Source of the DNA: Aequorivita sp. UBA3180
GTDB lineage: Bacteria; Bacteroidota; Bacteroidia; Flavobacteriales; Flavobacteriaceae
Reading direction: 5' to 3'
Assembly: GCA_002364215.1 (NCBI GenBank)
Contig: DEXQ01000018.1
Span: forward strand, 183,287 to 247,286
DNA: 64,000 nt
Under the pieces are notes generated by a model. It saw nothing but the letters and a program-made list of their open reading frames with translations. It did not search any database and was not told where the DNA came from. Shown here piece by piece: positions 10,461 through 60,310 of this stretch; within the stretch, counting starts at the first letter, position 1, and each line of letters begins with the position of its first letter. A program made the translations under genes and the position numbers.

Positions 10461-10461
10461 C

Positions 10462-34635: not shown

Positions 34636-34692
34636 TTAAGAAGTTTTTAGTTGTGGAAATACTAGATTAGTGATTGATGGTATTTTCAAAGG

Positions 34693-34731
34693 AAAGACGG
34701 GGGTTCGTTGATTTTCCCCCGTCTTTTAAAA
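34693..34731 (+). terminator. Hairpin/terminator after nosZ
   Basis: aaagacggggg / cccccgtcttt 11-bp stem. Confidence 0.7.
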
Positions 34732-34845
34732 AAATTGTAGAAGTGATTACACTTCATACATCTCAAAACCAACCCCACACCATCTGCACGAAGACTTAAA
34801 CCGAAAACCAACCGCACGGACGTTTAAGAATTAAAATTCAAAAAA

Positions 34846-35463: not shown

Positions 35464-35489
35464 TCAACTTGTTAAAACAGTACAGCATA

Positions 35490-35924: not shown

Positions 35925-36130
35925 TGTTTTTGAAAATTAGGGCCTCAGAAAGTTTCACTTTTTATTTATAACAAAAGGGAGATTACTGAGGTCTTTCTTA
36001 TAGATTTTTTTGATAATAACATTCTCAGAAATTGTAAAAAGCACCAAAAAAATTCAAATTCCTTTTTATCCATTAAATTCAGTATCTTCCATCTTTTTTA
36101 ATTCAAAGCTGTTTTTTTTATGGCTTTGTA

Positions 36131-41192: not shown

Positions 41193-41639
41193 ATGTTAAG
41201 CAAACAACAAGCACGGGCATTTTTCCTTGGCGGAACGCTCGTAACATTCCTGATTTTTATTGGCCTTACCATTTATTCATTTAGCGATGGCAACGACCAA
41301 ACCAACTATGAAAACATTACCGAACAAGTAGTGCGCGGCAAGGTTATCTGGGAAGAGAACAACTGTATGGGCTGCCACACCATTCTTGGGGAAGGTGCCT
41401 ATTATGCACCCGAACTTACCAAGGTAATTGAACGCCGTGGCGAAGGCTACGTAAAAGCAGTGCTTATGACTCCAGTGCCTTGGGCACCAAACGATCGCAA
41501 AATGGTAGCCTACGGTTTTTCCGAAGAAGAAGCTATGGATGTCATCGCCTTTTTTAATTGGATTGGGGAGATAGACCTAAATGGCTTTGACCGTATTGTG
41601 TCGCCGTTGGCAAAAGACAAGCAACTAACCAATAACTAA
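41193..41639 (+). CDS. norC: Nitric oxide reductase cytochrome c subunit
   Basis: N-terminal TM, GKVIWEENNCMGCHTILGEGAYYAPELT. Confidence 0.93.
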   Translation: MLSKQQARAFFLGGTLVTFLIFIGLTIYSFSDGNDQTNYENITEQVVRGKVIWEENNCMGCHTILGEGAYYAPELTKVIERRGEGYVKAVLMTPVPWAPNDRKMVAYGFSEEEAMDVIAFFNWIGEIDLNGFDRIVSPLAKDKQLTNN

Positions 41640-41661
41640 CCAAAAATAAAATTTTATACTG

Positions 41662-43011
41662 ATGAAATATAAATCTCAAAAAGTAGCGTACTGGTTTTTT
41701 GCACTCTCTATGCTTTTACTGGTACTTCAAATAACCTATGGCTTTATTATGGGTTTCGCCCGAATCGGAATGGATGGCTTGCACGAATTTATTCCTTTTA
41801 ACACAGCGCGTGCTGTTCATACCAACCTGCTTGTAGTTTGGTTGCTCTCCGGATTTATGGGAGCTGCCTATTACATTATCCCCGAAGAGGCCCAACGCGA
41901 GCTCGTTAGCGTAAAGTTGGCGTATGTGCAGCTTATTTCACTTGCAGCCGTGGGTGTTGCAGCAATTGTAGGCTATCACTTTAACTGGTGGGAAGGCCGT
42001 AAGTTTTTGGAAATTCCACGCCAGCTCGACTATTTGGTAGTTTTAAATGTATTATTGTTTTTGGCATTAATACTCTTGACGCTCTTCAAAGGAAAACGAA
42101 AAACCACAACGGCACTTGTGCTTACTATGGGGCTTTTGTTTGCTGCTTTGTTATACATTCCCGGAATGTTACCGTTTGACAGCCAGGTAACCGACAGCTT
42201 TTTCCGCTGGTGGGTTGTTCACCTTTGGGTTGAGGGCGTTTGGGAGCTTATCATGGGCGGTATCCTTGCCTTCCTATTAATAAAGTTAACAGGTGTTGAC
42301 CGTGAGGTTATCGAAAAATGGCTTTACGTAATCGTGGGTCTCACATTCCTTTCCGGAGTACTGGGTACCGGGCACCACTACTATTATATTGGTGTGAATA
42401 AAATCTGGCTTATCGTTGGTGGAATTTTCTCAGCTCTGGAGCCATTGGCTTTTCTTGCAATGGCACTTTTCGCAGTAAATATGTACCGCAAGGGTGAAAA
42501 GAAACACCCCAACAAAATAGCTTTGTTTTGGACGCTGGGCGCTGCAATTGTATCCTTCGTGGGTGCGGGACTTTTAGGATTTGCACACACTCTGCCACAA
42601 ACAAACCTTTATACCCACGGAACCTTGGTAACCGCGATGCACGGCCACTTAGCGTTTTGGGGTGCTTACGCCATGATTGTTTTGGCAATTATAAGCTACA
42701 GCCTTCCAAATATGACGGGACGTAAATTTTATGATGGCGTGCGTGGCCGCGTGGCATTTTGGACAGCCAATATAGGGATGATCGGGATGACGATGGCCTT
42801 TGGAGTAGCTGGGGTGGCACAGGTTTATTTGGAACGGAAATTTGGGATGGAATTTATGGCGGTTCAAAAAGAAATTAGCATCCACTTTGTAGTGTTGATT
42901 ATCTGCGCCAGTCTATTCGCCGTAGGTATTTTAACCTATATCTATGATTTTTATAAGCACGGTCGCCCAACAGATGAAGCTTTGGAAACCGTGGAAAGTA
43001 CATACCTATAA
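41662..43011 (+). CDS. norB: Nitric oxide reductase large subunit (cNOR)
   Basis: RAVHTN, WWVVHLWVEGVWE, GTGHHYY, ALEP, AMHGHLAFWG. All six His and the conserved Glu are present. Confidence 0.96.
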   Translation: MKYKSQKVAYWFFALSMLLLVLQITYGFIMGFARIGMDGLHEFIPFNTARAVHTNLLVVWLLSGFMGAAYYIIPEEAQRELVSVKLAYVQLISLAAVGVAAIVGYHFNWWEGRKFLEIPRQLDYLVVLNVLLFLALILLTLFKGKRKTTTALVLTMGLLFAALLYIPGMLPFDSQVTDSFFRWWVVHLWVEGVWELIMGGILAFLLIKLTGVDREVIEKWLYVIVGLTFLSGVLGTGHHYYYIGVNKIWLIVGGIFSALEPLAFLAMALFAVNMYRKGEKKHPNKIALFWTLGAAIVSFVGAGLLGFAHTLPQTNLYTHGTLVTAMHGHLAFWGAYAMIVLAIISYSLPNMTGRKFYDGVRGRVAFWTANIGMIGMTMAFGVAGVAQVYLERKFGMEFMAVQKEISIHFVVLIICASLFAVGILTYIYDFYKHGRPTDEALETVESTYL

Positions 43012-43133
43012 TAAATTAAAGGCCTGAAATGGGTTACGCTCTTATACCTGAAAACCTGGGAATTAATTCATATAAAACAGTTTTAAGTCATTCCCAACCA
43101 GAACCAAGTTTCGGGCCTTTTTAATAAATTGTT

Positions 43134-43230
43134 TGTCTGGTCGAGCCCTTCGGCAGACTCAGGATAAACTAAAGTCGTGATCTAATTAGCAGTAGGAAAC
43201 TTAGCGTTTTCGACTGCACTCGAACTGACA
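43134..43230. repeat. REP/REPIN-like palindromic intergenic element
   Basis: Outer arms tgtctggtcgag / ctcgaactgaca (10/12 complementary) with an internal cccttcggcagactcagg unit. Confidence 0.55.
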
Positions 43231-43247
43231 TTTAAAAATTTAGCATT

Positions 43248-44069
43248 ATGTCCACTACAGATACTATCAATATAAAACCATTAACAGAGCTTTCTTCGGA
43301 AACACCTTTTTATAAACCCATTTCGCGGGAGGTGGAAGTTTTTCAGCACGCGTTCAAAAATAAATTGCCTATTTTGCTGAAAGGCCCCACGGGAACTGGA
43401 AAAACTAGGTTTGTAGATTTTATGGCGCATCAGTTAGAGCAACCGCTCATCACCGTTTCCTGCCATGAGGAAACCTCTTCCACAGATCTTATTGGGCGCT
43501 ACATCATCAAGGGTGCCGAGACCATTTGGGTGGACGGGCCGTTGACGAAAGCCGTAAAAGAGGGCGCCATTCTTTATTTGGATGAAATTGCCGAAGCCCG
43601 TCCGGACGTTGTGGTTGCGATACATTCCTTGACGGATCACAGAAAGGAACTTTATATTGACAAATTAGGCATTACCGTAAAGGCACATCCCGATTTTATG
43701 CTCGTGGCGTCTTTCAATCCGGGTTACCAAAAAGGTTTTAAGGAATTAAAACCATCTACCCGCCAGCGTTTTGTGGCGCTTTCGTTTCAATATCCGACCT
43801 CAAAAGACGAAACCGAAATCGTTGCAACTGAAACTGGCTTGGACAAAGACACTTCAAAAAAACTGGTGAACATCGCCAATAAAATCCGCAATCTCACCGA
43901 GTTGGGGCTTACTGAAACCGTTTCCACCCGTTTGTTGGTGGACGCGGCAATGCTTATAAACAGTGGCCTTCCGAAGCGGCTTTCGGTAAAAGTAGCCATA
44001 GTGGAACCGTTGACCGACGACGCGGAAATTACCCAAGCACTCACCGACCTCTGCGATTTGATGATTTAA
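43248..44069 (+). CDS. norQ: NorQ (CbbQ/NirQ/NorQ) AAA+ ATPase
   Basis: KGPTGTGKTRFV, YLDEIAEAR, KPSTRQRF, VSTRLLV. Confidence 0.93.
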   Translation: MSTTDTINIKPLTELSSETPFYKPISREVEVFQHAFKNKLPILLKGPTGTGKTRFVDFMAHQLEQPLITVSCHEETSSTDLIGRYIIKGAETIWVDGPLTKAVKEGAILYLDEIAEARPDVVVAIHSLTDHRKELYIDKLGITVKAHPDFMLVASFNPGYQKGFKELKPSTRQRFVALSFQYPTSKDETEIVATETGLDKDTSKKLVNIANKIRNLTELGLTETVSTRLLVDAAMLINSGLPKRLSVKVAIVEPLTDDAEITQALTDLCDLMI

Positions 44070-44079
44070 GCCAAAAGCC

Positions 44080-45849
44080 ATGTTTGAACCCGATGAGTTT
44101 ATCTTTGCCAAGGTTGCAAAATTCCTAAAACACCGAAAAAAAAGTGCGAGGGAAGCCATTGCGCACACCGTAAAGCTTAGTGAAATAAAGTCTCGGCTTA
44201 CTTTGGTGGCCCGCGCCGTAACCGGCCATCCCATCGAAATTTTTGAGGCAGAGCAGGAGGGCGGTTATAAGAACAACGCCTTCTTTTTACCCGAACGGTT
44301 TTCGGGTTCTGATACTTCAGAAAAAAATCTGGCTTTTTATATTTTTAGGACGCTTTATCTTTCAATTCAAAAAAGTTTTCAGCTTAATTATGAATTGGGC
44401 GAAGAACATACGTTGGAAGCGGCCCGGCAAATTTCACAAGAAAATTCTGAAAAAGTCTTAAAGGAGATTTTCAGCCAATTCCCGGGAACTGAAACCATTT
44501 ATACCGAACTGAAATTGCTTTTTGAAGAAAATACTTCGGAAAAAAATCCGCCCGACTATTACTTCATCTATGGGAAATGGATGGAAAATTCTCCAGAAAC
44601 TCCGAAGAAAAAAGTGCTTCAGAATATTTCAGAAAAAGTAAAATCTGCTATCGGAGAAGAGATAAATACTATTTTGAAGGCTAATGCGGTGGAGGAGATT
44701 AAATCCATTGAAGTTGACAAAAAAGCGCAAGAAGATTACGTGCTCACCCACAATTTTGAAAAGGCCGAAACCGCGGAAGAGTGGGAGGGCGGCTGGCGCG
44801 ATTTTGATGGCGATGACGAGCTGAACGACCACGCCAACGCGCTCGAAGATTTAAATATGAAACAGACCGTGCGGGTGGACGACCCCACGCATTCCATATA
44901 TCAGGCGGAGTTTATTGAAAATACCACAATTTCAGAAAGCGCTGAAATTGAAAATGCCAACTACAACATTTTGTATGACGAATGGGACTATTCCAAACGT
45001 GTTTACAAACCAGATTTTTGCAAAGTTTATCCGCAAACACAGACTGAAACCGATTCTGATTATTATAGAAATACCCTACGGGAACACGCTTCGACTTTGA
45101 TGGGGCTTCGGAAAATGCTCACTTCGGTAAATAATAAATACCAGCAGCAACGCAGGCAGCTGCAGGGCGAAGAATTTGACCTCGATGCACTCACGGATTT
45201 ATATGTGGACGTTCATTCGGGCCACACGCCTTCGGAAAATATTTACCTATCAAAACGCAAAAAGGAAAAAGACCTTTCCATTTTGATGCTTTTAGACAGC
45301 AGCCTTTCCAGCGATGGCTATGCCGCGGACAATCGGGTAATTGATGTGGAAAAGCAGGTTTCCATCATTTTTGGAGAAATTTTGGAGGAATTCAACGTAG
45401 ATTTTTCTATTGCTGGTTTCTATTCCAAAACCCGCAACCACAGTTCCTATTTAACTTTAAAGGATTTTGACGAACCGTGGCAAAAGGCAAAACACAAAGT
45501 GGGAGCATTGCAGCCAAGTGGCTATACACGCATTGGTACGGCGTTGCGGCATTCCGGAGCTTTGCTGGACAAGCGCGACACCAAAAACAAATGGGTTATC
45601 CTGATTTCTGATGGAAAACCTAATGATTACGACAAGTACGAAGGCAAATACGGCATCAACGATGTGAAGCAGGCGCTTCGCGAGCTGAACCAGCGGAATA
45701 TCAATTCGTATGCATTGGCAATCGAAGCACAGGCAAAATATTACTTGCCGCAGATGTTTGGGCAGAACCATTTCCAGATTTTGACTACGCCCGTTGAATT
45801 GCTGCAATCGCTTGTAAAACTCTACGACAAAATAAAGCACCAAAGCTAA
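44080..45849 (+). CDS. norD: NorD von Willebrand factor A activation protein
   Basis: Y.EWDYS, GEEFDLDA, LLDSSLS (MIDAS), YTRIGTALRH, ISDGKPND.D.YEG.YG..D. Confidence 0.92.
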   Translation: MFEPDEFIFAKVAKFLKHRKKSAREAIAHTVKLSEIKSRLTLVARAVTGHPIEIFEAEQEGGYKNNAFFLPERFSGSDTSEKNLAFYIFRTLYLSIQKSFQLNYELGEEHTLEAARQISQENSEKVLKEIFSQFPGTETIYTELKLLFEENTSEKNPPDYYFIYGKWMENSPETPKKKVLQNISEKVKSAIGEEINTILKANAVEEIKSIEVDKKAQEDYVLTHNFEKAETAEEWEGGWRDFDGDDELNDHANALEDLNMKQTVRVDDPTHSIYQAEFIENTTISESAEIENANYNILYDEWDYSKRVYKPDFCKVYPQTQTETDSDYYRNTLREHASTLMGLRKMLTSVNNKYQQQRRQLQGEEFDLDALTDLYVDVHSGHTPSENIYLSKRKKEKDLSILMLLDSSLSSDGYAADNRVIDVEKQVSIIFGEILEEFNVDFSIAGFYSKTRNHSSYLTLKDFDEPWQKAKHKVGALQPSGYTRIGTALRHSGALLDKRDTKNKWVILISDGKPNDYDKYEGKYGINDVKQALRELNQRNINSYALAIEAQAKYYLPQMFGQNHFQILTTPVELLQSLVKLYDKIKHQS

Positions 45850-45850
45850 A

Positions 45851-46435
45851 ATGGAAAGTACGGCCAAAATAGATTACAAAAATATTTTTTACCCACCGGG
45901 AGGAATCCTGATATGGATTATTATTTATTTGGAATTGGTAACCTTCGGGATTGCCTTGGTTTTTATGGCGCTGAACGCAAGGGCAGAGCCCGAACTTTTT
46001 CACGAATCCCGCCTGTTGCTAAACACGGCTTATGGCGCCATAAACACCGTTTTTCTGCTCAGCAGCGGTTGGTGCATGGCGCAGTCGGTGCATTTTCTGA
46101 AATTGGGAAATTTTGGCAAAAGCAAGTTGTTTCTTCGGTTGACCATTCTCGGCGGAATGCTGTTTTTGGTTCTGAAAGCCGTGGAATACGTCGATAAGAT
46201 TGAAGCAGGATTGACGGTGGGTTACAATGCATTTTTTGAATATTATTGGATGCTCACCCTTTTTCACGTAATACACGTGGTGGTGGGGGTTATTATTTTG
46301 CTGGTTTTGGGAAGAACCCTCAGCAAAAAACCCGAAACTCTCAAAATTGCTGATTACGAATCGGGCGCAGCCTTTTGGCATATGTGCGATTTGATTTGGC
46401 TGTTGCTCTTCCCCATAATCTATTTACTTTTTTAA
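45851..46435 (+). CDS. Cytochrome c oxidase subunit III-like protein (NorE-like)
   Basis: NT.FLLSS, KAVEY..K, YWMLTLFHVIHV, FWHMCDLIW..LFP..Y. Confidence 0.85.
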   Translation: MESTAKIDYKNIFYPPGGILIWIIIYLELVTFGIALVFMALNARAEPELFHESRLLLNTAYGAINTVFLLSSGWCMAQSVHFLKLGNFGKSKLFLRLTILGGMLFLVLKAVEYVDKIEAGLTVGYNAFFEYYWMLTLFHVIHVVVGVIILLVLGRTLSKKPETLKIADYESGAAFWHMCDLIWLLLFPIIYLLF

Positions 46436-46437
46436 AA

Positions 46438-46671
46438 ATGGAACGCACTTTTAACATCACTTGGCTTGTTTTAATTGGCTTGACCCTCCTTTCCGCGGTG
46501 TTCGCCAATTTGGATTTTCCCTATGTTGCAATAATCATTTTAGGGCTTTCCTTTTTGAAATTTATAGGCGTGGCATTCTTTTTTATGGAACTTAAAAAGG
46601 CGAATGCTTTTTGGAAGGTACTGCTCGTGGCGTTTTTGACGCTATTGCTTGTTGTGGTTTGGGCGGTTTAA
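46438..46671 (+). CDS. Cytochrome c oxidase subunit IV-like protein (NorF-like)
   Basis: TWLVLIGLT, KF..VA.FFMELK.A; three TM helices; ATG at 46438. Confidence 0.75.
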   Translation: MERTFNITWLVLIGLTLLSAVFANLDFPYVAIIILGLSFLKFIGVAFFFMELKKANAFWKVLLVAFLTLLLVVVWAV

Positions 46672-50246: not shown

Positions 50247-50334
50247 TTTGTATAAAGATGATTTTAAAATAAAAATATTAGGAAAAACATTGGTTCGCCA
50301 AAAGCGAAATTAAAAGATGTTTTAGTCCTAAAAA

Positions 50335-50348
50335 CTGATATTTATCAT
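50335..50348 (+). promoter_or_regulatory. FNR-like box, possibly bidirectional
   Basis: CTGAT-ATTT-ATCAT; TATTTTTA at 50371 (+, 22-bp gap) and TAATTTCG at 50305-50312 (-, 22-bp gap). Confidence 0.78.
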
Positions 50349-50400: not shown

Positions 50401-50832
50401 ATGGTCTCCAATCCAAGGCCTTATATTTTTATTATGGCGGTTCTGCTCGCCCTCTTCGGTTTTTATAATTATATAATCTATAATACCGATGGGTACGTGG
50501 CCGTGGAAAAATTATCCCCTGTGGCAGTACAAGGCCAGCAACTGTTCCAAAGCAACCGTTGTTGGTCCTGTCATCAATTGTACGGTTTGGGTGGCTATTT
50601 GGGTCCGGATTTAACAAACGTATATTCCGCCGAAGGCAAAGGTGCAAATTATATAAAAGCGTTTTTGAACAGTGGTGTGAAAAGTATGCCACAATTCCAC
50701 TTTACGGAAGAGGAGAAAGAGGCGCTGGTGCAATACTTAAAACAAGTAGATGAAACGGGAATTTACCCAAATTACGATGCCGAAATTGAAGCAACGGGCT
50801 GGGTGAAAATAAAATATAGAAATGAAGAATAA
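50401..50832 (+). CDS. NorC-like membrane-anchored monoheme cytochrome c (second copy)
   Basis: N-terminal TM, GQQLFQSNRCWSCHQLYGLGGYLGPDLT, SMPQF. Confidence 0.85.
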   Translation: MVSNPRPYIFIMAVLLALFGFYNYIIYNTDGYVAVEKLSPVAVQGQQLFQSNRCWSCHQLYGLGGYLGPDLTNVYSAEGKGANYIKAFLNSGVKSMPQFHFTEEEKEALVQYLKQVDETGIYPNYDAEIEATGWVKIKYRNEE

Positions 50833-52147
50833 AGTGCCGCTCCTGTTTTTGTTGTTTGCGCTCACCGCCCTCTTTTTGGGAATGCTCTTTGGGCTTACAG
50901 CTTCACTTCAGTATTTGTTGCCAGAATTTTTAAAGGAAACGGTGCCCTTTTCCAAACTTCGACCATTTCACGTAACTTCTGAAACTTCTTGGATTGTGCT
51001 TGCAGCCACGGGCAGTATTTATTTTTTTATCGCTTCGGTTGAGAAGTTTGAGCTCTTTTCACCAAAATTCCAGTTGCTTCATTTCATACTTTTCCTGTTG
51101 ACGGGCGTTGCCATTTATTTTTCTTTCGCTTTCGATTATACCGAGGGCCGCGAATATTTCGCATTTAAACCTATTTTAATGATTCCAATTTTGATAGGTT
51201 GGGTACTTTTCGCAATCAACTATTTTAAAACGCTCTACACCAATATGAAGGGCTGGCCTGTCTATTACTGGATGTGGGGCACGGGCATCGTCTTTATGTG
51301 CTATCATTTAATGGAGGCACATTTTTGGCTGTTCGATTTTTTTAGGTTGAATTTTATAAAAGATTTTGCCGTCCAGTGGAAATCGACCGGTTCGTTTACG
51401 GGCTCGTGGAATATGCTGGTTTACGGTATTTCAATTTATCTGATGTCCGAAATCAAAAAGGATACCGATGTGGCCACCAATAAAATTGCGTTTTTCTTTT
51501 ACTTTTTGGGGTTGACGAATTTAATGTTCGGCTGGGCGCACCATACCTATTTATTGCCAACCCAACCGTGGATTCGGTATGTGGCTTACGCAATAAGTAT
51601 GACGGAGTGGATTGTGCTTGCATCGATAATTTACAATTGGAAACGTTCGGTTTTAAAGATTGAAAAGGAAAATCACCCCATGGCATACAGGTTTTTGTTG
51701 GCAACCGATTTTTGGATTTTTATCAACATTATTTTGGCGCTATTATTCTCCATTCCCGCCATTAATTTCTTTACCCACGGCACGCACGTTACCGTGGCAC
51801 ATTCCATGGGCACTACCATTGGCATTAATACAACGATACTTTTTTCGGCCTTGTTTTTTATTGCGCATTATGTGCGGCCACAGCTAAAAACCGATACCAA
51901 ATGGGTTAAGCGTGGGTTTGTTGCTTTCAATATCTCGCTGTTTATCTTTTTCGTTTCATTGATAATTGCCGGTGCTAAACGCAGCTACTGGATGTACGTT
52001 TCAAAGGAAGGATCGTTTGCGGAAATGCAGGATTCAATCGTGCCGTACTATATTTCGTTTTTCATCTTTGGAATTGGGATATTTATTTCGCTTTTAATAG
52101 TAGCGACGCCTATTTTCAAAGTTTTGCTTCACAAAATAAAATCATAA
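50822..52147 (+). CDS. Divergent NorB-like heme-copper oxidase superfamily subunit I with substituted metal ligands
   Basis: LRPFHV, GWAHHTY, GTHVTVAHSMG align with NorB helices II, VII and X. Helix VI lacks the His and Glu. Confidence 0.75.
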   Translation: MKNKVPLLFLLFALTALFLGMLFGLTASLQYLLPEFLKETVPFSKLRPFHVTSETSWIVLAATGSIYFFIASVEKFELFSPKFQLLHFILFLLTGVAIYFSFAFDYTEGREYFAFKPILMIPILIGWVLFAINYFKTLYTNMKGWPVYYWMWGTGIVFMCYHLMEAHFWLFDFFRLNFIKDFAVQWKSTGSFTGSWNMLVYGISIYLMSEIKKDTDVATNKIAFFFYFLGLTNLMFGWAHHTYLLPTQPWIRYVAYAISMTEWIVLASIIYNWKRSVLKIEKENHPMAYRFLLATDFWIFINIILALLFSIPAINFFTHGTHVTVAHSMGTTIGINTTILFSALFFIAHYVRPQLKTDTKWVKRGFVAFNISLFIFFVSLIIAGAKRSYWMYVSKEGSFAEMQDSIVPYYISFFIFGIGIFISLLIVATPIFKVLLHKIKS

Positions 52148-52153
52148 GTACCG

Positions 52154-53080
52154 ATGGATTTACATCAAAAAATAAAAGAGCTTAAAACGCAAAAAAATGC
52201 TGTAATTCTCGCACACTATTACCAAGTGCCCGAAATTCAGGAAGTGGCAGATTATGTGGGCGATAGCTTGGGGCTTTCGCAAAAAGCAGCAGAAACCGAT
52301 GCCGAAATGATCGTCTTTGCTGGCGTGCATTTTATGGCGGAAACGGCCAAAATTTTGAACCCCGCTAAAAAAGTTTTGCTTCCCGATTTAATGGCGGGCT
52401 GTTCGCTGGCAGATTCGTGTCCGCCCATTGCTTTTAAAAAATTGGTGGACGCCCATCCGGACCACGTGGTAATAACGTATGTGAATTGTTCTGCAGAAGT
52501 AAAGGCCTTGAGTGATATTATTTGCACCTCTTCCAACGCCGAAAAAATAGTGAATTCGGTGCCAAAGGACGTACCGATTATTTTTGCGCCCGATAAAAAT
52601 TTGGGGAAATATATTCAGAAGAAAACTGGGCGGAACATGCTGCTTTGGGATGGAGCTTGCATTGTGCACGAAGCCTTTTCGATGGATAAACTGCTGAAAT
52701 TATACAAAGAAAATCCGGGTTCAAAAATAATTGCCCACCCCGAAAGCGAGAGCCATATTTTGGAAACTGCAACCTATATCGGTTCCACGGCGGGAATGAT
52801 TGATTATGTGAAAAAGCATCCTTCGGAAAAATTTATTGTTGCCACTGAAGCTGGAATTCTTCATAAAATGCAGCAGGAAGTACCGCAAGCGGTACTGATT
52901 CCAGCCCCTGCGGAAGAAGACAACACCTGCGCATGCAGCGAATGTGCGTTTATGAAAATGAACACTTTGCAAAAATTATACTACTGTCTGCTGAATGAAA
53001 ATCCACAAATAGAAGTTACCGAAGAAATACGTAAAAAAGCAATTCTGCCCATTGAGCGAATGCTGGAATTATCGAAGTAG
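52154..53080 (+). CDS. nadA: Quinolinate synthase
   Basis: [38 protein letters not shown]. Confidence 0.96.
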
Positions 53081-53082
53081 TG

Positions 53083-54651
53083 ATGGAAACCAATTTTTTG
53101 ATTATCGGTTCGGGCGCTGCGGGTTTGACGCTTGCAGTGAAACTTGCTGCGGAATTTCCAAAGAAAAAAATCACGGTGGTGACCAAGGCGCACCAGTCGG
53201 AATCGAACACCAAATATGCGCAGGGCGGCGTGGCGGCGGTTTTTGATTTAAAGGAAGATTCCTTTCAAAAACACATTGAGGATACGCTGATTGCGGGTGA
53301 CGGACTATGCGACAGAGCGGTTGTGGAAATGGTCATAAAAGAAGGCCCAAAAAGATTGCGCGAACTGATGGCATGGGGCGCCAAATTTGATACCGATGCC
53401 AATGGCGAACTCAATTTAGGTAGGGAAGGAGGCCATTCAGAATTTAGGGTAATCCATCATAAAGACACAACGGGCAACGAGATTGAGCGTGCGCTTTTGG
53501 AACGTACCAATCAACTTTCGAATCTTATGTTGCTGCCGCATCATTTCGCAATAGACTTGATTACGGAGCATCATTTTTCAGAAAATAAAACTGAAAATCT
53601 TTCGTGTTACGGGGCTTATGTTTTGGACCAAATTTCGGGGAATATTTTTACCATAAAAGCAGACTGCACCACACTCGCTTCGGGCGGAATGGGGCAGGTT
53701 TACGGCCATACCACCAATCCCAAAGTAGCAACGGGCGATGGTATTGCCATGGCATATCGGGCAAAGGCGAGGATCAAAAACATGGAGTTTATCCAGTTTC
53801 ATCCCACCGCGCTTTACGACGGGAATAATGGCGCTTCGTTTTTAATTTCTGAGGCAGTTCGTGGTTTTGGAGCGTTTCTTCGGAATAAAAATGGCGAACG
53901 GTTTATGTTGAATTATGATGAACGGGGCGAATTGGCTTCCCGTGATATTGTTTCGCGTGCCATAGATTCTGAAATAAAAAAATCGGGCGATGACTGTGTT
54001 TTCTTAGATTGTACACATTTGAATATCGAAGATTTCAAAAAACATTTTCCAAACATATATGAAACTTGTTTGCAGAAGAATATAAAAATTGCGAAAGATT
54101 GGATTCCCGTGGTTCCCGCATCGCATTATTTGTGCGGCGGGGTGGTTGTGGATATGGATGGAAAGACTTCGGTGAAAAATCTTTTTGCCTGTGGCGAATG
54201 TTCGTACACCGGTTTGCACGGCGCCAACCGGCTGGCATCCAATTCGTTGTTGGAAGCTTTGGTCTATGCAGACCGTATTTTTAAATATCTCTGTAAACAT
54301 CAGCCCTCACAGACGACCAAAGCCATTCCGGAATGGAATGATGCTGGGACGGTTTTATTGAAGGATTCTGAAACACTTCAGCAAAAAACCTTAGAATTAC
54401 AAGAATTAATGCGAAGATTTGCCGGGGTGGTGCGAGAAAGTGAAGATTTAAGAAAGGCATCCCTTCAACTTGAAAAATTGTATTTTGAAACGGAAGCGCT
54501 TTATCAGAAACACAAACTAAACACGGTACTTTCAGAGCTTCGGAATATGGTAAATGTGGCGCATTTGATCATCCAGCAATCCCTGAAACGAAAGGAAAAC
54601 CGTGGTGGATATTTTAATGAAGATTATATAAAAGTAAAAGAAATAAGATGA
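53083..54651 (+). CDS. nadB: L-aspartate oxidase
   Basis: IIGSGAAG, NT.YAQGG, REGGHS..R..H, EFIQFHPT, SEAVRG, SHYLCGG, HGANRLASNSLLE. Confidence 0.96.
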   Translation: METNFLIIGSGAAGLTLAVKLAAEFPKKKITVVTKAHQSESNTKYAQGGVAAVFDLKEDSFQKHIEDTLIAGDGLCDRAVVEMVIKEGPKRLRELMAWGAKFDTDANGELNLGREGGHSEFRVIHHKDTTGNEIERALLERTNQLSNLMLLPHHFAIDLITEHHFSENKTENLSCYGAYVLDQISGNIFTIKADCTTLASGGMGQVYGHTTNPKVATGDGIAMAYRAKARIKNMEFIQFHPTALYDGNNGASFLISEAVRGFGAFLRNKNGERFMLNYDERGELASRDIVSRAIDSEIKKSGDDCVFLDCTHLNIEDFKKHFPNIYETCLQKNIKIAKDWIPVVPASHYLCGGVVVDMDGKTSVKNLFACGECSYTGLHGANRLASNSLLEALVYADRIFKYLCKHQPSQTTKAIPEWNDAGTVLLKDSETLQQKTLELQELMRRFAGVVRESEDLRKASLQLEKLYFETEALYQKHKLNTVLSELRNMVNVAHLIIQQSLKRKENRGGYFNEDYIKVKEIR

Positions 54652-55244
54652 AAAATTTGATAGAAAGCTCGGTAAACAAAGCAATGGATTATACACAATA
54701 CAACTTGCTTTTTAAAAAACTGGTGGCGGAAGGCCGAACTACTGGCGAAGAAACCCAAGAAAAAATTGATTATACAAAACTGAATTTTAGTCGAACAAAG
54801 CGTTTGGACAAAACCGCTGAAATTTCTGAAGAAGCAATTGAGGTTTTCAAGAATATTTCAGAAAAACAAACTTGGCTCGTAATCAGCGAACCATGGTGTG
54901 GTGATGCCGCGCAAACGCTTCCGTTTTTGAATAAAATTGCACAACTTTTAGAAATCATCGATTTGAAGATTGTGCTTCGCGATGAAAATCCGGAGTTGAT
55001 GGATAAATTTCTTACCAATGGCTCCCAATCCATACCTGTGGTTATTATGCTCGATTCGGACTTCAACGTAATAAATACTTTTGGTCCGCGCTCTAAGGCC
55101 GCGACAAAATTGGTTATCGATTACAAGGAACATCACGGAAAAATAGACGACGCCTTTAAGGAAATGCTACAGCTTTGGTATAATAATGATAAGGGAATTT
55201 CAATAATTAATGATATTTTGGAAACCCTGAGTGTAAAAGCGTAA
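54648..55244 (+). CDS. Thioredoxin-fold protein (single-Cys WCGD type)
   Basis: ISEPWCGDAAQ, RDEN.ELMD.FLTNG..SIP, FGPR. Confidence 0.85.
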   Translation: MKNLIESSVNKAMDYTQYNLLFKKLVAEGRTTGEETQEKIDYTKLNFSRTKRLDKTAEISEEAIEVFKNISEKQTWLVISEPWCGDAAQTLPFLNKIAQLLEIIDLKIVLRDENPELMDKFLTNGSQSIPVVIMLDSDFNVINTFGPRSKAATKLVIDYKEHHGKIDDAFKEMLQLWYNNDKGISIINDILETLSVKA

Positions 55245-56831: not shown

Positions 56832-57260
56832 ATGTTTTCAAAAGCTTGTGAATATGGTATTCGGGCCGTTCTATTTATAGCAAAACAATCTCAAAAAGAT
56901 TTGCGACCAAATATCTCAGAAATATCCAAAGCAGTGGACTCACCGGAACCATTTACTGCCAAGGTTTGCCAACAACTTGCACGTGCGGGTATAATCTTAT
57001 CCAAAAAAGGGCCCAACGGTGGGTTTTATTTAGAAAAGAATTCGACCCTGCGATTGGCCGATATTGTTTCTGAAATAGATGGCGATCAAATATTTAACGG
57101 TTGTAGTCTCGGCTTACGCGAGTGCTCCTCGGAGCATCCCTGTCCCGTACACGATCAATTTATGGACGTACGCAACGGTTTAAGACAAATGTGCGAGAAT
57201 ACGTTGGTGATGGATCTTGCCAGTAATTTGGAAGAAGGCCAAACATTTTTAAAAGTTTAA
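56832..57260 (+). CDS. Rrf2 family regulator with Fe-S Cys motif (NsrR/IscR-like)
   Basis: MFSKACEYGIRA, S.KGPNGGF.L, CSLGLRECSSEHPCPVH. Confidence 0.92.
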   Translation: MFSKACEYGIRAVLFIAKQSQKDLRPNISEISKAVDSPEPFTAKVCQQLARAGIILSKKGPNGGFYLEKNSTLRLADIVSEIDGDQIFNGCSLGLRECSSEHPCPVHDQFMDVRNGLRQMCENTLVMDLASNLEEGQTFLKV

Positions 57261-57269
57261 GACAGAAGT

Positions 57270-57662
57270 ATGACGACGGATATAATGAAATTGAATGATG
57301 TAAAGCATTTGGTAGATTCCTTTTATGGAAAAATACGGGAAGATATCCTATTGAAGGATATTTTCAACAATATAATCCAAGACCGCTGGCCCGAGCATCT
57401 TGAAAAAATGTATACCTTTTGGCAAACCGTTCTTTTGAGTGAGCATACTTATTACGGCAGCCCTTTCCCGCCCCATGCAAAAATGCCCATTGATAAAGAG
57501 CACTTTGACCGATGGTTACAATTATTCTTTGAAACCATCGATGAAAATTTTACGGGTGAAGTGGCCGAGGAAGCAAAATGGCGCTCATCTAAAATGGCCG
57601 AGATGTTTCAGTTTAAAATAAATTATATGCGTGAAAACTCAGGCTCTAAATACGTTCAATAA
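57270..57662 (+). CDS. Group III truncated hemoglobin
   Basis: LVDSFYGKIRED.LL..IF, W..HL.KMY.FW..VLL, Y.G.PF..H, F.RWL.LF. Confidence 0.92.
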   Translation: MTTDIMKLNDVKHLVDSFYGKIREDILLKDIFNNIIQDRWPEHLEKMYTFWQTVLLSEHTYYGSPFPPHAKMPIDKEHFDRWLQLFFETIDENFTGEVAEEAKWRSSKMAEMFQFKINYMRENSGSKYVQ

Positions 57663-58129
57663 TGGAAAAGAAAAAACCGATTAAAAGACACACTGCCTTA
57701 CAGCCCTTAAGCCGGCAGCATCATTTTGGGCTACTTTTCAGTTGGAAATTGCGCAAGGGTTTCAGCAAAAATATTGCTCCCGAAAGACTTCAAAAATATG
57801 CCGCTTGGTTTTTTGAGGAAGAAATAAAGCCTCATTTTGAAGCCGAGGAAAAGCATGTTTTTACGGTTTTGAATGAAGACAATGAGTTAATTGTCCGTGC
57901 CTTAAAAGAACACAGGCGAATAGAGCGCCTTTTTAAGGAAAACGAAAATCCTGAAAAATCCCTAAGCCAGTTGGAGGAAGAGCTCGATGCGCATATCCGT
58001 TTTGAGGAGCGTATTCTTTTTAATGAAATCCAAAAAGTAGCCACCGAAAGTCAACTCCAAAAAATTTCAGAAATCCATTCTGAAAATGTAACACCACCTG
58101 AATATTCTGATCCATTCTGGGAAAATTAA
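57662..58129 (+). CDS. Hemerythrin/HHE domain protein
   Basis: LSRQHH, PHFEAEE, EH..I, HIRFEER.LF. Confidence 0.88.
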   Translation: MEKKKPIKRHTALQPLSRQHHFGLLFSWKLRKGFSKNIAPERLQKYAAWFFEEEIKPHFEAEEKHVFTVLNEDNELIVRALKEHRRIERLFKENENPEKSLSQLEEELDAHIRFEERILFNEIQKVATESQLQKISEIHSENVTPPEYSDPFWEN

Positions 58130-58180: not shown

Positions 58181-58240
58181 ATTTTGGGTGTGAATTTATG
58201 CTGAAATTTGCCCCATATTATTCATAAAAAGATATTTACC

Positions 58241-58966
58241 ATGACAACACTTCAAGAAAAAACAGTAGCCGATGTGGTTACGGAAAACATAAAAGCAGCC
58301 CACATTTTCAAAAAGCACGGCATTGATTTTTGCTGTGGGGGTGGAGTTAGCATTAAGAGAGCCTGTGAAAAAGCTAAGATAGATCCCGCTATTTTGATGG
58401 CAGAACTATTGAGTCTAGACACAGTGCAGGATAGAGCAAAAGATTATAACAGTTGGAAACTGGATTTTCTAACAGACCACATAATTAACGTACACCATAC
58501 CTATGTAGAAGAAAATAGCCCTATGCTACTTCAATATGCGCAGCGAGTAAACCATGTACATGGACATCATTACACAGAGCTCGGACAGATTGAGGCTTTG
58601 GTAAAACAAGTGGTGCAGGAGTTGGCTTCGCATATGAAAAAGGAAGAGTTGATACTTTTTCCTTTCATAAAAAAATTGGTAAAAGCTGAACGCGATGGAG
58701 AGGAAATTCCCGCAATTCATTTTGGAACTGTTGAGAATCCCATAAAAATGATGGAAGCTGAACACGAGGAGGCTGGCGAAATATTGCGTCAAATTGCAAA
58801 GTTGAGCAATAACTTCACACCACCACAGGGTGCTTGCAATACCTACCGTGCTTTTTATGCCAAACTTGATGAATTTGAGCAGGATTTGCATCAGCATGTT
58901 CATTTGGAAAATAATATTCTTTTCCCAAAAGCCTTGAACTTGGAAAAGAAATTAAAGAAAGATTAA
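58241..58966 (+). CDS. ric: Iron-sulfur cluster repair di-iron protein (Ric/YtfE/ScdA)
   Basis: IDFCCGG, HHTY, HMKKEELILFP, EH..AG, H.HLENNILFP. Confidence 0.95.
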   Translation: MTTLQEKTVADVVTENIKAAHIFKKHGIDFCCGGGVSIKRACEKAKIDPAILMAELLSLDTVQDRAKDYNSWKLDFLTDHIINVHHTYVEENSPMLLQYAQRVNHVHGHHYTELGQIEALVKQVVQELASHMKKEELILFPFIKKLVKAERDGEEIPAIHFGTVENPIKMMEAEHEEAGEILRQIAKLSNNFTPPQGACNTYRAFYAKLDEFEQDLHQHVHLENNILFPKALNLEKKLKKD

Positions 58967-59088: not shown

Positions 59089-59098
59089 TTGAACCTTG

Positions 59099-60310
59099 AT
59101 GGATTTACGAAAACACATAGCCATTGGGCTTTTCTATTTTCTGCTCGTGGCGCTGATGGGAGTTCTACTTCGTTTTTTTTTCGTAACGCCCATCTCGCTC
59201 AATTATAAATATATTCTACATGCGCATTCGCATACGGCTCTGCTCGGTTGGATTTATTTGGGGTTGACAACCTTAATTTATAAAGTATTTCTTTCAAAAG
59301 CAGAAAAGACAAAACATTATAAACGCATTTATATATTTACGAATCTTTGCATTGTAGGGATGCTCATAACCTTTCCCATTCAGGGTTATGCCTTGTATTC
59401 CATTATTTTTTCTACGCTGTTTCTATTTGCTTCGTACTGGTTTGCCTGGTTTGCGATGAAGCATATTCCGGCGCATTTTAAGCAACGCTTTTCTTGGAAG
59501 CTTATAAAAACCGCCCTATGGTATTTGGTTATTTCCAGTATTGGTCCCTGGGCGATCGGTGGGGTGATGGCGACTCTGGGGCCGGAGTCCATTTGGTATA
59601 AATCCTCCATTTATTTCTATCTCCATTTTCAGTATAATGGTTGGTTCATTTTCGCTTTGCTCGGTATTTTGTTTTACGTTTTTGAAGAAAAGGGAATCAA
59701 GTTTAATCCTGAAAAACTCAAATCGTTTTTTCTTCTCTTGAATTTTGGCGTCCTGTTCACTGTCTTTCTATCGTTCCTTTGGTTTGTCCCGCCCACGGTA
59801 ATTTATGTTTTAGGATTGGCTGGAGCCGTGGCGCAGCTATTGGCATTTTCGGAACTCTATTCAATGTTAAAAATAAATTTTCAGTTCCTAAAAAATGAAT
59901 TTGGCCCAAGCTGTTTGTTTCTTTTGAAATTTGCCGGTATTCTATTTGTTCTAAAACTGTTTATGCAGCTTTTCTCGGCTTTTCCCTATCTGGCCGACTT
60001 AGCTTTTCGGTTGAAGGATTTTGTAATTGGGTATCTACATATGGTTTTTTTGGGAATCGTAATTACCGCAATGCTCGCTTTTCTGAAATATTTTAAATTA
60101 ATACTGTTGCCCAAAAGCTTTTTTTGGCTCTATATGTTTGCATTCCTAAGCACGGAAGTGCTCATTTTTTATAAAGCCTGCGCACTTTGGCTAGGTTTGC
60201 CATTCGTTGCGGAATACTATTGGTTGCTTACCATTTTAAGCTGCGCGTTCCCCATTGCGGTGGGAATTTTATTTTTCAGAAACATTAAAAGTTTATATCT
60301 TTCTGCTTGA
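59099..60310 (+). CDS. Polytopic membrane protein with His motifs (NnrS/HCO-fold-like)
   Basis: About 12 TM; LHAHSHTALLGW, YLHFQYNGW, GYLHMVFLG. Confidence 0.6.
   Translation: MDLRKHIAIGLFYFLLVALMGVLLRFFFVTPISLNYKYILHAHSHTALLGWIYLGLTTLIYKVFLSKAEKTKHYKRIYIFTNLCIVGMLITFPIQGYALYSIIFSTLFLFASYWFAWFAMKHIPAHFKQRFSWKLIKTALWYLVISSIGPWAIGGVMATLGPESIWYKSSIYFYLHFQYNGWFIFALLGILFYVFEEKGIKFNPEKLKSFFLLLNFGVLFTVFLSFLWFVPPTVIYVLGLAGAVAQLLAFSELYSMLKINFQFLKNEFGPSCLFLLKFAGILFVLKLFMQLFSAFPYLADLAFRLKDFVIGYLHMVFLGIVITAMLAFLKYFKLILLPKSFFWLYMFAFLSTEVLIFYKACALWLGLPFVAEYYWLLTILSCAFPIAVGILFFRNIKSLYLSA

What the first reader, a model, noticed from the sequence alone, without database searches (positions are those of the whole stretch)
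50401..52147. Second norCB-like pair with a rewired active site (His to Thr, Glu to Thr/Asn, His to Met)
Seen, by aligning with the canonical NorB in the same window: helix II His is kept (RPFHV vs RAVHT). Helix VI WWVVHLWVEGVWE becomes QWKSTGSFTGSWN, losing the FeB His and both Glu. Helix VII HH is kept (WAHH). Helix X GTLVTAMHGHLAFWG becomes GTHVTVAHSMGTTIG, so the low-spin heme His is replaced by Met. A new HLMEAH appears in the preceding helix. The gene is intact, paired with its own NorC-like cytochrome (CWSCH) and has its own FNR-like box. Established: the six His are near-invariant in heme-copper oxidases and NORs, and ligand-substituted qNOR variants have been proposed as NO dismutases. 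Inference: a possibly undescribed HCO-superfamily member with non-canonical chemistry, or an electron-transfer or sensing role.
Basis: partly seen in the sequence, partly recalled or inferred. Interest (0 to 1): 0.86.

Follow-up and report, generated by a model that had tools for sequence, protein, structure and literature searches.

The report
Rebuilt NorCB-like haem enzyme pair
Beside its ordinary nitric-oxide reductase, this Aequorivita flavobacterium has an intact, strongly conserved second enzyme pair of the same superfamily with a differently built catalytic site; the pair belongs to a large family that is probably already catalogued but has never been tested biochemically, and that most likely handles NO or N2O under low oxygen.

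Summary
Window 50401-50832 encodes a membrane-anchored monohaem cytochrome c (CWSCH). It overlaps by 11 bp a 441-aa haem-copper-oxidase subunit I homologue (50822-52147).

This protein keeps:
- the helix II His (H50)
- the HH pair (H240/H241)
- the haem b3 His (H327)
- the Ca-site Glu (E111)

It lacks the helix VI His and both helix VI Glu of cNOR, and it has Met329 in place of the second low-spin haem His.

It is not a relic. dN/dS is about 0.04, and the substitutions are fixed in 314 full-length relatives. The family covers well over 1000 species, mainly Bacteroidota, Gemmatimonadota and Planctomycetota.

In a tree the family is a separate clade, sister to cNOR+qNOR. That is the position Murali et al. 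(PNAS 2024) give to an uncharacterised 'putative N2O reductase' family. I could not verify that the two are the same.

The only universal neighbour is the cytochrome c gene. In Bacteroidia the recurrent neighbours are Rrf2/NsrR-type regulators, RIC, NrdDG, Crp/Fnr, norCBQD and nadAB. A conserved TGAT-N4-ATCA box lies about 65 nt upstream.

Best reading: a cytochrome c-fed NO (or N2O) reductase induced by low oxygen, with a rebuilt non-haem site (H240, H241, K187, E262). The chemistry is untested.

The parts
50314..50329 (.). Degenerate remnant of an Rrf2 (NsrR-type) palindrome, AAGATGTTTTAGTCCT
   Evidence: At the same offset (-87 from the cytochrome c start), 12 Aequorivita-clade loci carry AAGATA-N4-TATCTT with 0-2 mismatches. 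This window's copy has more than 2 mismatches. Good copies lie at 41150, 56772 and 58148 in the window.
50336..50347 (.). Crp/Fnr-type box TGATATTTATCA, 65 nt upstream of the ATG at 50401
   Evidence: There are five exact TGAT-N4-ATCA sites in the window against 1.33 expected. The same box is exact in 30 of 76 orthologous loci, mostly at -55 to -68. One-mismatch versions occupy the same place in many other loci.
50401..50832 (+). NorC-like membrane-anchored monohaem cytochrome c (143 aa from the ATG; an in-frame GTG lies at 50362)
   Evidence: Pfam Cytochrome_CBB3 and Cytochrom_C match. It is 29% identical to the window's NorC. C..CHQ.YGLGGYLGPDLTN and a distal MP are conserved in 78 orthologues. 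It lies immediately upstream of the HCO gene in 75 of 80 group A loci and 80 of 80 A2 loci. Most group B loci (46 of 80) have a dihaem cytochrome c in that position and 16 of 18 group C loci a monohaem one.
50822..52147 (+). 441-aa haem-copper-oxidase subunit I homologue (NorB-like) with a rebuilt ligand set
   Evidence: Pfam COX1 matches at E 2.5e-29. A profile search of the PDB gives cNOR NorB 4xyd at 3e-19 and 3o0r at 1e-16. The AF2 model has pTM 0.89 and TM 0.87 to 4xyd. dN/dS is 0.036-0.052.
52154..53080 (+). nadA (quinolinate synthase), 6 bp downstream; probably the same transcript
   Evidence: It was assigned by reading the ORF; no family search was run on it. A homologue lies within 5 kb of the pair in 45 of 80 Flavobacteriales loci and within the 6-kb flanks in 20 of 80 other Bacteroidia loci.
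53080..54651 (+). nadB (L-aspartate oxidase), overlapping the nadA stop
   Evidence: ORF reading. A homologue is present in 43 of 80 and 20 of 80 loci.
54648..55244 (+). Thioredoxin_9-family protein, overlapping the nadB stop; last gene of the apparent operon
   Evidence: Pfam PF14595 matches at E 9.5e-40. It is syntenic in Aequorivita loci.

Best explanation
The two overlapping genes encode a functional two-subunit membrane haem enzyme. One subunit is a single-helix-anchored monohaem cytochrome c. The other is a 12-helix subunit of the haem-copper oxidoreductase superfamily.

The enzyme belongs to a large, ancient clade that is sister to cNOR+qNOR. This is very probably the family that Murali et al. 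2024 listed as an uncharacterised 'putative N2O reductase'.

**Shown**
- The gene pair is intact and under strong purifying selection.
- Its ligand pattern is fixed across the family.
- Its obligate partner is the cytochrome c.
- It sits behind a conserved Crp/Fnr-type box, in an operon with nadA, nadB and a thioredoxin-like gene.
- It lies inside an island for anoxia and NO stress.

**Inferred mechanism**
- Electrons pass from periplasmic cytochrome c to the subunit's own haem c.
- They then reach a His50/Met329 low-spin haem b, whose potential should be higher than that of a bis-His haem.
- From there they reach a high-spin haem b3 on His327. The Ca site Glu111 is retained.
- Haem b3 faces a non-haem metal site rebuilt from other positions: His240, His241 and Lys187 (one turn before the lost helix VI His, which is now Gly190), plus the carboxylate of Glu262.
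- This recreates a three-nitrogen, one-carboxylate sphere like FeB of cNOR.
- The universally conserved Glu165 and Asn197 probably serve proton delivery from the periplasmic side.

**Proposed role**
The enzyme is made when oxygen is low. In related Aequorivita it is also made when an NsrR-type repressor is relieved by NO. It reduces NO (less likely N2O). This protects Fe-S enzymes such as the co-transcribed NadA, independently of the respiratory cNOR.
For: **Fold and relatives**
- Pfam COX1 matches over the full length.
- cNOR NorB is the best match among solved structures, by profile and by fold (TM 0.87).
- In the tree, cbb3 branches first, and cNOR+qNOR are sister (SH-aLRT 97) to a clade (95) that holds all family members.

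**Selection and conservation**
- dN/dS is 0.036-0.052.
- Among 314 full-length members: H50 in 313, E111 in 310, E165 in 314, N197 in 311, H240 in 312, H241 in 311, H327 in 313 and M329 in 310.
- Positions 187/190/262 are K/G/E in 295 members and H/D/A in 13. A nitrogen donor and a carboxylate are therefore always present.

**Partner**
- The cytochrome c gene lies directly upstream of the HCO gene in 75 of 80 group A and 80 of 80 A2 loci. Most group B loci have a dihaem cytochrome c there and 16 of 18 group C loci a monohaem one.
- Some members are fused to FixO and dihaem c domains.

**Regulation and context**
- The TGAT-N4-ATCA box is conserved.
- An Rrf2 palindrome lies at -87 in 12 relatives.
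- Rrf2 regulator genes lie nearby in 24 of 80 and 38 of 80 loci.
- Other recurrent neighbours are RIC, NrdDG, Crp/Fnr, norQD and nadAB.
- The window itself carries nos, norCBQD, rrf2-globin-hemerythrin, ric and ccoNO.

**Distribution**
- The pair occurs in genomes without Nir, cNOR, NosZ or NorD. This fits a stand-alone detoxifying enzyme.
Against: - No biochemical or genetic data exist for any family member.
- In cNOR, the helix VI His and Glu211 are FeB ligands and Glu215 is a further conserved active-site Glu. All three are absent here, so NO reductase chemistry cannot be assumed.
- The role of K187 and E262 as ligands rests on alignment and on a single phylogenetic split (group C against A+B). 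It does not rest on repeated covariation or on coordinates.
- The AF2 model has pLDDT below 50 at residues 180-189 and 239-246, and its coordinates could not be inspected.
- The genome already has a canonical cNOR, so the NO reductase function would be redundant here.
- The only published suggestion for the probable family is N2O reduction, not NO reduction.
- The NsrR-type box is degenerate in this strain.
- The nadAB linkage could be inherited synteny rather than functional coupling.
Confidence: 0.45

Rival explanations
1. It is a membrane-bound, cytochrome c-dependent N2O reductase of the haem-copper superfamily. This is what Murali et al. 2024 suggested for the cNOR-related family, by reference to the acetylene- and sulfide-insensitive membrane N2O reductase of Flexibacter (now Solitalea) canadensis.
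For: - The tree position matches that of the paper's 'N2O red' family.
- The family is mainly found in Bacteroidota, as is S. canadensis.
- Five of eight Flavobacteriales genomes with the pair lack NosZ.
- A His/Met low-spin haem suits a high-potential acceptor.
Against: - The paper gives the idea in one sentence, without data.
- This window already has a full nosZDFY cluster about 15 kb upstream.
- I could not show that S. canadensis encodes a family member.
- To my knowledge, N2O reduction at a haem/non-haem site has no precedent.
- The NsrR, RIC and globin context points to NO rather than N2O.
Confidence: 0.2
2. It is a low-oxygen terminal oxidase or oxygen scavenger. It would stand in for cbb3, reducing O2 with electrons from cytochrome c.
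For: - It has an FNR-type box like ccoNOQP operons.
- Some members are fused to FixO and dihaem c domains, the cbb3 architecture.
- In four small genomes of one genus, it is the only HCO besides an A-type oxidase, and there is no cbb3.
Against: - The helix VI His is absent, so no His-Tyr cross-link is possible.
- The cbb3 helix VII Tyr position (6 residues before HH) is Leu234.
- The TIGR00780 ccoN score is 34.9 against a cut-off of 583.
- Murali et al. argue that HCO families without the active-site Tyr do not reduce O2.
Confidence: 0.08
3. It is not an NO, N2O or O2 reductase. It would be a haem-based electron-transfer or sensing module, or an enzyme for another small oxidant such as nitrite, hydroxylamine or peroxide.
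For: - The active site differs from every characterised HCO.
- The distribution is independent of denitrification genes.
- The tight linkage to nadAB has no obvious respiratory logic.
Against: - Both haem sites, the HH pair, the Ca-site Glu and a dedicated cytochrome c are all retained.
- Fusions to CcoO/CcoP-like domains exist.
- Together these argue for through-put of electrons to a bound substrate.
- No signalling output domain or partner is conserved nearby.
Confidence: 0.15
4. It is a decaying duplicate of norCB, that is, a relic.
For: It lies 7 kb from a canonical norCBQD cluster and has lost canonical ligands.
Against: - It is only about 25% identical to the window's NorB, and only over the N-terminus.
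- It forms a separate deep clade.
- dN/dS is about 0.04.
- The substitutions are invariant in hundreds of species from several phyla.
Confidence: 0.01

Closest known systems
'N2O red' family of Murali et al., PNAS 2024 (PMC11214002): an HCO family 'closely related to cNOR', putative sulfide- and acetylene-insensitive N2O reductase
   Same: - It has the same place in the HCO tree: the C-family branch, separate from cNOR/qNOR but next to them.
- It lacks the active-site Tyr.
- Its frequency is of the same order. The paper reports 293 GTDB r202 genomes. Here I found over 1000 species among 185,579, from pattern-limited and possibly overlapping counts.
- It has a link to Bacteroidota.
   Different: - Identity could not be verified, because the paper's datasets are not held.
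- The main text does not describe the family's ligands.
- The paper calls gNOR 'the first' HCO to replace an active-site His. This sits awkwardly with a family that lacks the helix VI His.
- The proposed function is untested.
cNOR (NorCB), e.g. P. aeruginosa 3O0R, Roseobacter denitrificans 4XYD, and the window's own norCB (41193-43011)
   Same: - It has a two-gene unit: a TM-anchored monohaem cytochrome c followed by a 12-TM subunit of about 450 aa.
- cNOR is the best match by fold and by profile.
- It shares the Ca-site GRE(Y/F) Glu, the HH pair, the haem b3 His, the THGT motif and the Glu280 equivalent (E262).
   Different: - It is a sister clade, not a member.
- The helix VI His, Glu211 and Glu215 are absent.
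- The low-spin haem is His/Met, not bis-His.
- Lys187, Glu165 and Asn197 are family-specific invariants.
- There is no dependence on NorQD by co-occurrence: NorD is absent from 6 of 8 genomes.
cbb3 oxidase (CcoNOP), 3MK7
   Same: - It shares the DxxVQW motif before helix VI.
- It uses cytochrome c subunits.
- Some family members are fused to FixO and dihaem c domains.
- It has FNR-type regulation.
   Different: - It has no helix VI His and no helix VII cross-link Tyr.
- The TIGR00780 score is far below the cut-off.
- cbb3 branches outside the cNOR+family clade.
Ligand-substituted NORs: NOD (qNOR-derived), gNOR (His to Asp) and nNOR (His/Met low-spin haem)
   Same: - They share the idea of an HCO with one active-site His replaced. 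Group C of this family has Asp at that position, as described for gNOR.
- nNOR also has a His/Met low-spin haem.
   Different: - NOD is a fused enzyme of about 800 aa inside the qNOR clade.
[quoted passage not shown]
- This family is on the C-branch and has a cytochrome c partner.

Membership tests
Haem-copper oxidoreductase superfamily, subunit I | 12-TM COX1 fold | tested here: met
   PF00115 matches at E 2.5e-29 over residues 7-417. The AF2 model has pTM 0.89 and TM 0.81-0.87 to cNOR and cbb3 subunits.
Haem-copper oxidoreductase superfamily, subunit I | Six canonical His ligands (helix II; helix VI; helix VII HH; helix X H-x-H) | tested here: not met
   Four of the six are present: H50, H240, H241 and H327. 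The helix VI His is replaced by T189 or G190, and the second helix X His by M329.
cNOR (NorCB) | Placement inside the cNOR clade | tested here: not met
   It forms a separate clade (SH-aLRT 95), sister to cNOR+qNOR (97).
cNOR (NorCB) | FeB ligands His207, His258, His259 and Glu211, plus Glu215 and Glu280 | tested here: not met
   Only the HH pair and the Glu280 equivalent (E262) are kept. His207, Glu211 and Glu215 are replaced.
cNOR (NorCB) | Adjacent NorC-type membrane-anchored monohaem cytochrome c | tested here: met
   The genes overlap by 11 bp. The partner has CWSCH and a conserved MP, and is 29% identical to NorC.
cNOR (NorCB) | Co-occurrence with the NorQ/NorD maturation factors | tested here: not met
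   NorD was found only in the 2 of 8 pair-bearing genomes that also have cNOR. Note that qNOR also works without NorQD, so this says nothing about the presence of a metal.
cNOR (NorCB) | NO reductase activity | not testable with these tools
   This needs enzyme assays.
cbb3 oxidase (CcoN) | Three CuB His and the helix VII cross-link Tyr; the NCBIfam ccoN equivalog score | tested here: not met
   TIGR00780 scores 34.9 bits against a cut-off of 583. Leu234 occupies the Tyr position, and there is no helix VI His.
Murali et al. 2024 'N2O red' HCO family | A clade on the C-family branch next to cNOR, lacking the active-site Tyr | tested here: met
   See the tree and the paper's text.
Murali et al. 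2024 'N2O red' HCO family | Sequence identity with the paper's family members or HMM; presence in Solitalea (Flexibacter) canadensis | tested here: inconclusive
   The supplements are not held. S. canadensis did not appear among the best 80 or 120 hits of three searches, which list only the closest relatives.
Murali et al. 2024 'N2O red' HCO family | N2O reduction | not testable with these tools
   This needs enzyme or whole-cell assays.
NO dismutase (NOD) | qNOR-type fused protein of about 800 aa inside the qNOR clade | tested here: not met
   The protein is 441 aa with a separate cytochrome c, and it lies outside the qNOR clade.

The most novel reading that the evidence does not exclude
The family is a distinct catalytic class of haem-copper-superfamily enzyme. 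Its non-haem metal site has been rebuilt from new positions: His240, His241, Lys187 and Glu262 in groups A and B, and His187 with Asp190 in group C. This site sits opposite haem b3 and is fed through a His/Met haem b. The enzyme would carry out a reaction that differs from cNOR, for example NosZ-independent, acetylene-insensitive reduction of N2O to N2, or high-affinity NO scavenging. If so, over a thousand mostly non-denitrifying species of Bacteroidota, Gemmatimonadota and Planctomycetota would be an unrecognised sink or source in the N2O budget.
Probability: 0.3. Interest if true: 0.85.

Novelty: new member of a known kind. Interest (0 to 1): 0.55.

Why it matters
- Databases label these proteins 'cbb3-type cytochrome c oxidase subunit I' or 'nitric oxide reductase subunit B'. 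They fail the defining tests of both. Metagenomic inventories of NO and N2O metabolism therefore miscount them.
- The family is large and deeply conserved. It occurs in many organisms that have no other denitrification enzyme.
- If it reduces N2O, it would be a second, NosZ-independent biological N2O sink. If it reduces NO, it would be an unrecognised N2O source and a nitrosative-stress defence.
- Its fixed Lys/Gly/Glu (or His/Asp/Ala) pattern and its His/Met haem offer a natural experiment on how many ways an HCO active site can be built.
- This window offers a clean case. The pair sits beside a canonical cNOR and NosZ in a cultivable genus, with a defined promoter box.

Tried and rejected
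- **Relic or pseudogene:** rejected on dN/dS and on cross-phylum conservation.
- **Ordinary cNOR or cbb3:** rejected by the ligand set, the model scores and the tree.
- **The 14-mer TTGAT-N4-ATCAA with up to 2 mismatches:** not enriched in the window (81 matches against 70 +/- 9 expected). Only the exact 12-mer core and its cross-species conservation carry weight.
- **Linking the family to Solitalea (Flexibacter) canadensis, and so to Murali's family:** all attempts were inconclusive.
  - The taxonomy look-up gave the current name.
  - The cluster look-up returned no names.
  - A locus scan centred on non-flavobacterial Bacteroidia returned only MAGs.
  - A homologue search seeded with a protein from a Sphingobacteriaceae MAG returned only MAGs.
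- **Literature searches:** apart from Murali et al., I found no characterisation of the family.
- **AF2 model:** it could not be inspected at residue level because no coordinates are returned. Whether K187, E165 and E262 reach the haem b3 pocket therefore remains an inference.
- **NorD co-occurrence:** the test was run. I do not use it as evidence against a non-haem metal, because qNOR also lacks NorQD.
Full report
**1. What is at the coordinates**

The window comes from an Aequorivita species (Flavobacteriaceae); the best homologues are 94-95% identical proteins of A. aquimaris, A. vladivostokensis and A. nionensis.

Two + strand ORFs overlap by 11 bp:
- 50401(ATG)-50832, 143 aa. An in-frame GTG lies at 50362, but orthologue alignments start at the ATG.
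- 50822-52147, 441 aa.

The small protein is a cytochrome c (Pfam Cytochrome_CBB3 and Cytochrom_C). It has an N-terminal hydrophobic helix and the CWSCH motif. It is 29% identical to the window's NorC (E 1e-14). In 78 orthologues the block C..CHQ.YGLGGYLGPDLTN and a distal Met-Pro are conserved.

The large protein matches Pfam COX1 over its full length (E 2.5e-29). It scores far below the curated ccoN cut-off (34.9 against 583 bits). It is only about 25% identical to the window's NorB, and only over the first 110 residues by BLASTP.

A canonical norCBQD cluster with COX3-like and COX4-like genes lies at 41193-46671. A nosZ-nosDFY cluster lies at 32668-38877.

**2. The ligand pattern**

Three independent alignments agree on what is kept and what is lost. 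They are HMMER against PDB NorB sequences, MAFFT L-INS-i with 80 family representatives, and MAFFT with cNOR, qNOR, cbb3 and A-type references.

Kept:
- H50 (RPFH, helix II)
- H240/H241 (WAHH, helix VII)
- H319 (THGT)
- H327 (haem b3 ligand)
- E111 in GREY (the haem-bridging Ca site of cNOR and cbb3)
- E262 in SMTEW (equivalent to Glu280 of P. aeruginosa cNOR)

Lost:
- The helix VI His. It aligns with T189 or G190, depending on a one-residue indel. The DxxVQW anchor shared with cbb3 ([10 protein letters not shown]) favours G190.
- Glu211, which aligns with T193 or a gap.
- Glu215, which aligns with N197.
- The second helix X His, which is M329.

**3. Not a relic; a large and deep family**

- Against close orthologues, dN/dS is 0.036-0.052 for the large gene and 0.02-0.09 for the cytochrome gene. 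This is like nadA, at 0.03-0.04.
- A word-indexed search found more than 1881 relatives. An exhaustive search of 50%-identity representatives found 115 clusters below 1e-30.
- Genome scans found at least 481 species with the Flavobacteriales-type motifs (group A).
- They found at least 587 species with motifs of other Bacteroidia, such as Chitinophagaceae, Saprospiraceae and Ferruginibacter (group A2).
- They found at least 266 species in Gemmatimonadota (including Palauibacter), Planctomycetota, Acidobacteriota and others (group B).
- They found 18 species in a distant group C: Alpha- and Gammaproteobacteria, Verrucomicrobiota, Leptospirales and some Bacteroidota.

Conservation among 314 full-length members:

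| Residue | Members with it |
|---|---|
| H50 | 313 |
| E111 | 310 |
| E165 | 314 |
| N197 | 311 |
| H240 | 312 |
| H241 | 311 |
| Y243 | 308 |
| H319 | 312 |
| H327 | 313 |
| M329 | 310 |

Positions 187, 190 and 262 occur as K/G/E in 295 sequences, H/D/A in 13 and Q/D/A in 2. This is one phylogenetic split (group C against A+B), so it counts as one event, not repeated covariation. It does mean that every member offers, beside the HH pair, one more nitrogen donor and one carboxylate near helix VI or VIII.

**4. Phylogenetic place**

I built an IQ-TREE (LG+C20, quick search) of 47 family members together with cNOR, qNOR, cbb3 and A-type references taken from Bacteroidota genomes. A-type was the outgroup.
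- cbb3 branches first.
- cNOR+qNOR (SH-aLRT 100) is then sister (97) to a clade (95) that holds groups C, B and A.
- The references come from one phylum and the search was quick, so deep branch support should be read with care.
- The profile and fold rankings agree, with cNOR ahead of cbb3 ahead of A/B-type.

**5. Is it already known?**

Murali et al. [quoted passage not shown] They cite work on Flexibacter canadensis. They place the family on the C-family branch with cNOR, qNOR and NOD, and count it in 293 GTDB genomes.

The place in the tree, the Bacteroidota connection and the order of magnitude of its frequency all fit the family studied here. Flexibacter canadensis is now Solitalea canadensis, in Sphingobacteriaceae.

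I could not verify identity. The supplements are not held. My three attempts to reach S. canadensis returned only closer relatives or unnamed MAG proteins.

The main text does not describe this family's ligands. No other paper in the library characterises it. I put the identity at roughly 75-80%.

Earlier notes of this scan show that the same family was met in at least eight other windows, with similar conclusions. These are leads, not evidence. I re-derived each claim used here.

**6. Genomic context and regulation**

The one universal neighbour is the upstream cytochrome c. It is monohaem in groups A, A2 and C, and dihaem in most of group B. A few members are fused at the C-terminus to FixO-like and dihaem c domains.

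Neighbour counts in Bacteroidia:

| Neighbour | 80 Flavobacteriales loci | 80 other Bacteroidia loci |
|---|---|---|
| nadA | 45 | 20 |
| nadB | 43 | 20 |
| Rrf2 regulator | 24 | 38 |
| RIC (ScdA_N + hemerythrin) | 20 | 14 |
| NrdD | 19 | 10 |
| 600-aa protein without Pfam match (window 38999-40801) | 19 | 20 |
| norD | 21 | 4 |
| Crp/Fnr regulator | 14 | 6 |

In the window the pair is followed by nadA at a 6-bp gap. nadB and a Thioredoxin_9 gene then follow with overlapping stop and start codons, so this is probably a five-gene operon.

Downstream in the window lie:
- an Rrf2 regulator, a truncated-globin-like gene and a hemerythrin
- RIC
- a 404-aa membrane protein that is itself homologous to a recurrent neighbour
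- a CcoI-type ATPase and ccoNO

The FNR-like box is TGATATTTATCA at 50336-50347.
- The exact core TGAT-N4-ATCA occurs five times in the window against 1.33 expected.
- Four of the five sites are intergenic. They lie 49-134 nt before gene starts, including a PAS kinase and a REC-Crp hybrid regulator pair.
- In orthologous loci the exact box occurs in 30 of 76, nearly always at -55 to -68 from the cytochrome start. The background is 0.023 per 270 bp. One-mismatch versions sit at the same place in many of the other loci.
- Loci where the pair directly follows another gene lack the box.

In 12 Aequorivita-clade loci an Rrf2-type palindrome, AAGATA-N4-TATCTT, sits at -87, just upstream of the FNR box. 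In this window that site is degenerate, while good copies lie before norC, rrf2 and ric.

**7. Distribution against other nitrogen-oxide enzymes**

In 201 evenly drawn Flavobacteriales genomes, the pair occurs in 8, cNOR in 10 and NosZ in 28. Two genomes share the pair and cNOR, and three share the pair and NosZ.

Among the eight genomes with the pair:
- three have NirK and none has NirS
- two have qNOR-like genes
- four small genomes of one genus have only an A-type oxidase besides the pair
- NorD is present only where cNOR is present

The pair is therefore not a dedicated part of denitrification.

**8. Interpretation**

Shown:
- It is a functional, selected, two-subunit haem protein of a cNOR-sister clade.
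- Its ligand set is fixed and non-canonical.
- It has a dedicated cytochrome c and a conserved Crp/Fnr-type box.
- Its neighbourhood is dominated by NO-stress and anoxia genes.

Inferred:
- Electron flow runs from cytochrome c to haem c, to the His/Met haem b, to haem b3.
- A non-haem site is rebuilt from H240, H241, K187 and E262, giving a three-nitrogen, one-carboxylate sphere like FeB.
- E165 and N197 act in proton delivery.
- NO is the most likely substrate and N2O the main alternative.

The main weaknesses:
- There are no biochemical data for any member.
- Model confidence is low exactly at residues 180-189 and 239-246, and I had no access to coordinates.
- This genome also has a canonical cNOR.

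I rate the NO-handling reading at about 0.45, N2O reduction at 0.2, another substrate or role at 0.15, an oxidase at 0.08 and a relic at 0.01.

**9. Verdict**

- It is a new member of a known but uncharacterised kind.
- It is of moderate to high interest as an experimental target, not as a discovery.

Noticed in passing
window 38999-40801 (+): A 600-aa protein with no Pfam match lies between nos and nor. Homologues recur next to the NorCB-like pair in 19 of 80 Flavobacteriales loci and 20 of 80 other Bacteroidia loci, so it looks like a further member of the same regulon.
   Followed up: partly
window 41150, 56772, 58148: Rrf2-type palindromes AAGATA-N4-TATCTT (1 mismatch each) lie before norC, before an rrf2-globin-hemerythrin cluster (56832-58129) and before ric (58208-58966). 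The equivalent site before the NorCB-like pair (50314-50329) is degenerate in this strain but intact in 12 related loci.
   Followed up: partly
window 9176-9187 and 11541-11552; genes 9225-11514 and 11603-12442: Exact TGAT-N4-ATCA boxes lie 49 nt before a PAS histidine kinase, which is followed by a REC-cNMP-HTH_Crp hybrid regulator, and 62 nt before a universal stress protein gene. The hybrid regulator is a candidate binder of the box found in front of the pair.
   Followed up: partly
window 59096-60310 (+): A 404-aa polytopic membrane protein without a Pfam match is 39% identical to a 413-aa protein that recurs near the pair in 12 of 80 loci. It is possibly an NnrS-like protein, but this was not tested.
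   Followed up: partly
P0134, P0152, P0159, P0200 (about 800 aa); locus L081 906-3308: Some family members are fused at the C-terminus to a FixO-like domain and a dihaem cytochrome c domain. This is a cbb3-like CcoN-O-P architecture in a single chain. In L081 such a fusion still has a separate cytochrome c gene upstream and a beta-eliminating lyase gene next to it.
   Followed up: partly
genomes G094, G120, G136, G152 (one genus, 1.6-2.1 Mb): In these small Flavobacteriales genomes the NorCB-like pair is the only haem-copper enzyme besides an A-type oxidase. They have no cbb3, no NOR and no Nir, and only G120 has NosZ.
   Followed up: partly
genome G005, C1:2380029-2381369: A canonical NorB orthologue, 89% identical to the window's, contains one in-frame TAA. 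It may be a pseudogene or a sequencing error.
   Followed up: no
window 45851-46671 (+): COX3-like and COX4_pro-like genes follow norD. The same two small genes sit between norD and the NorCB-like pair in about 20 related loci.
   Followed up: partly
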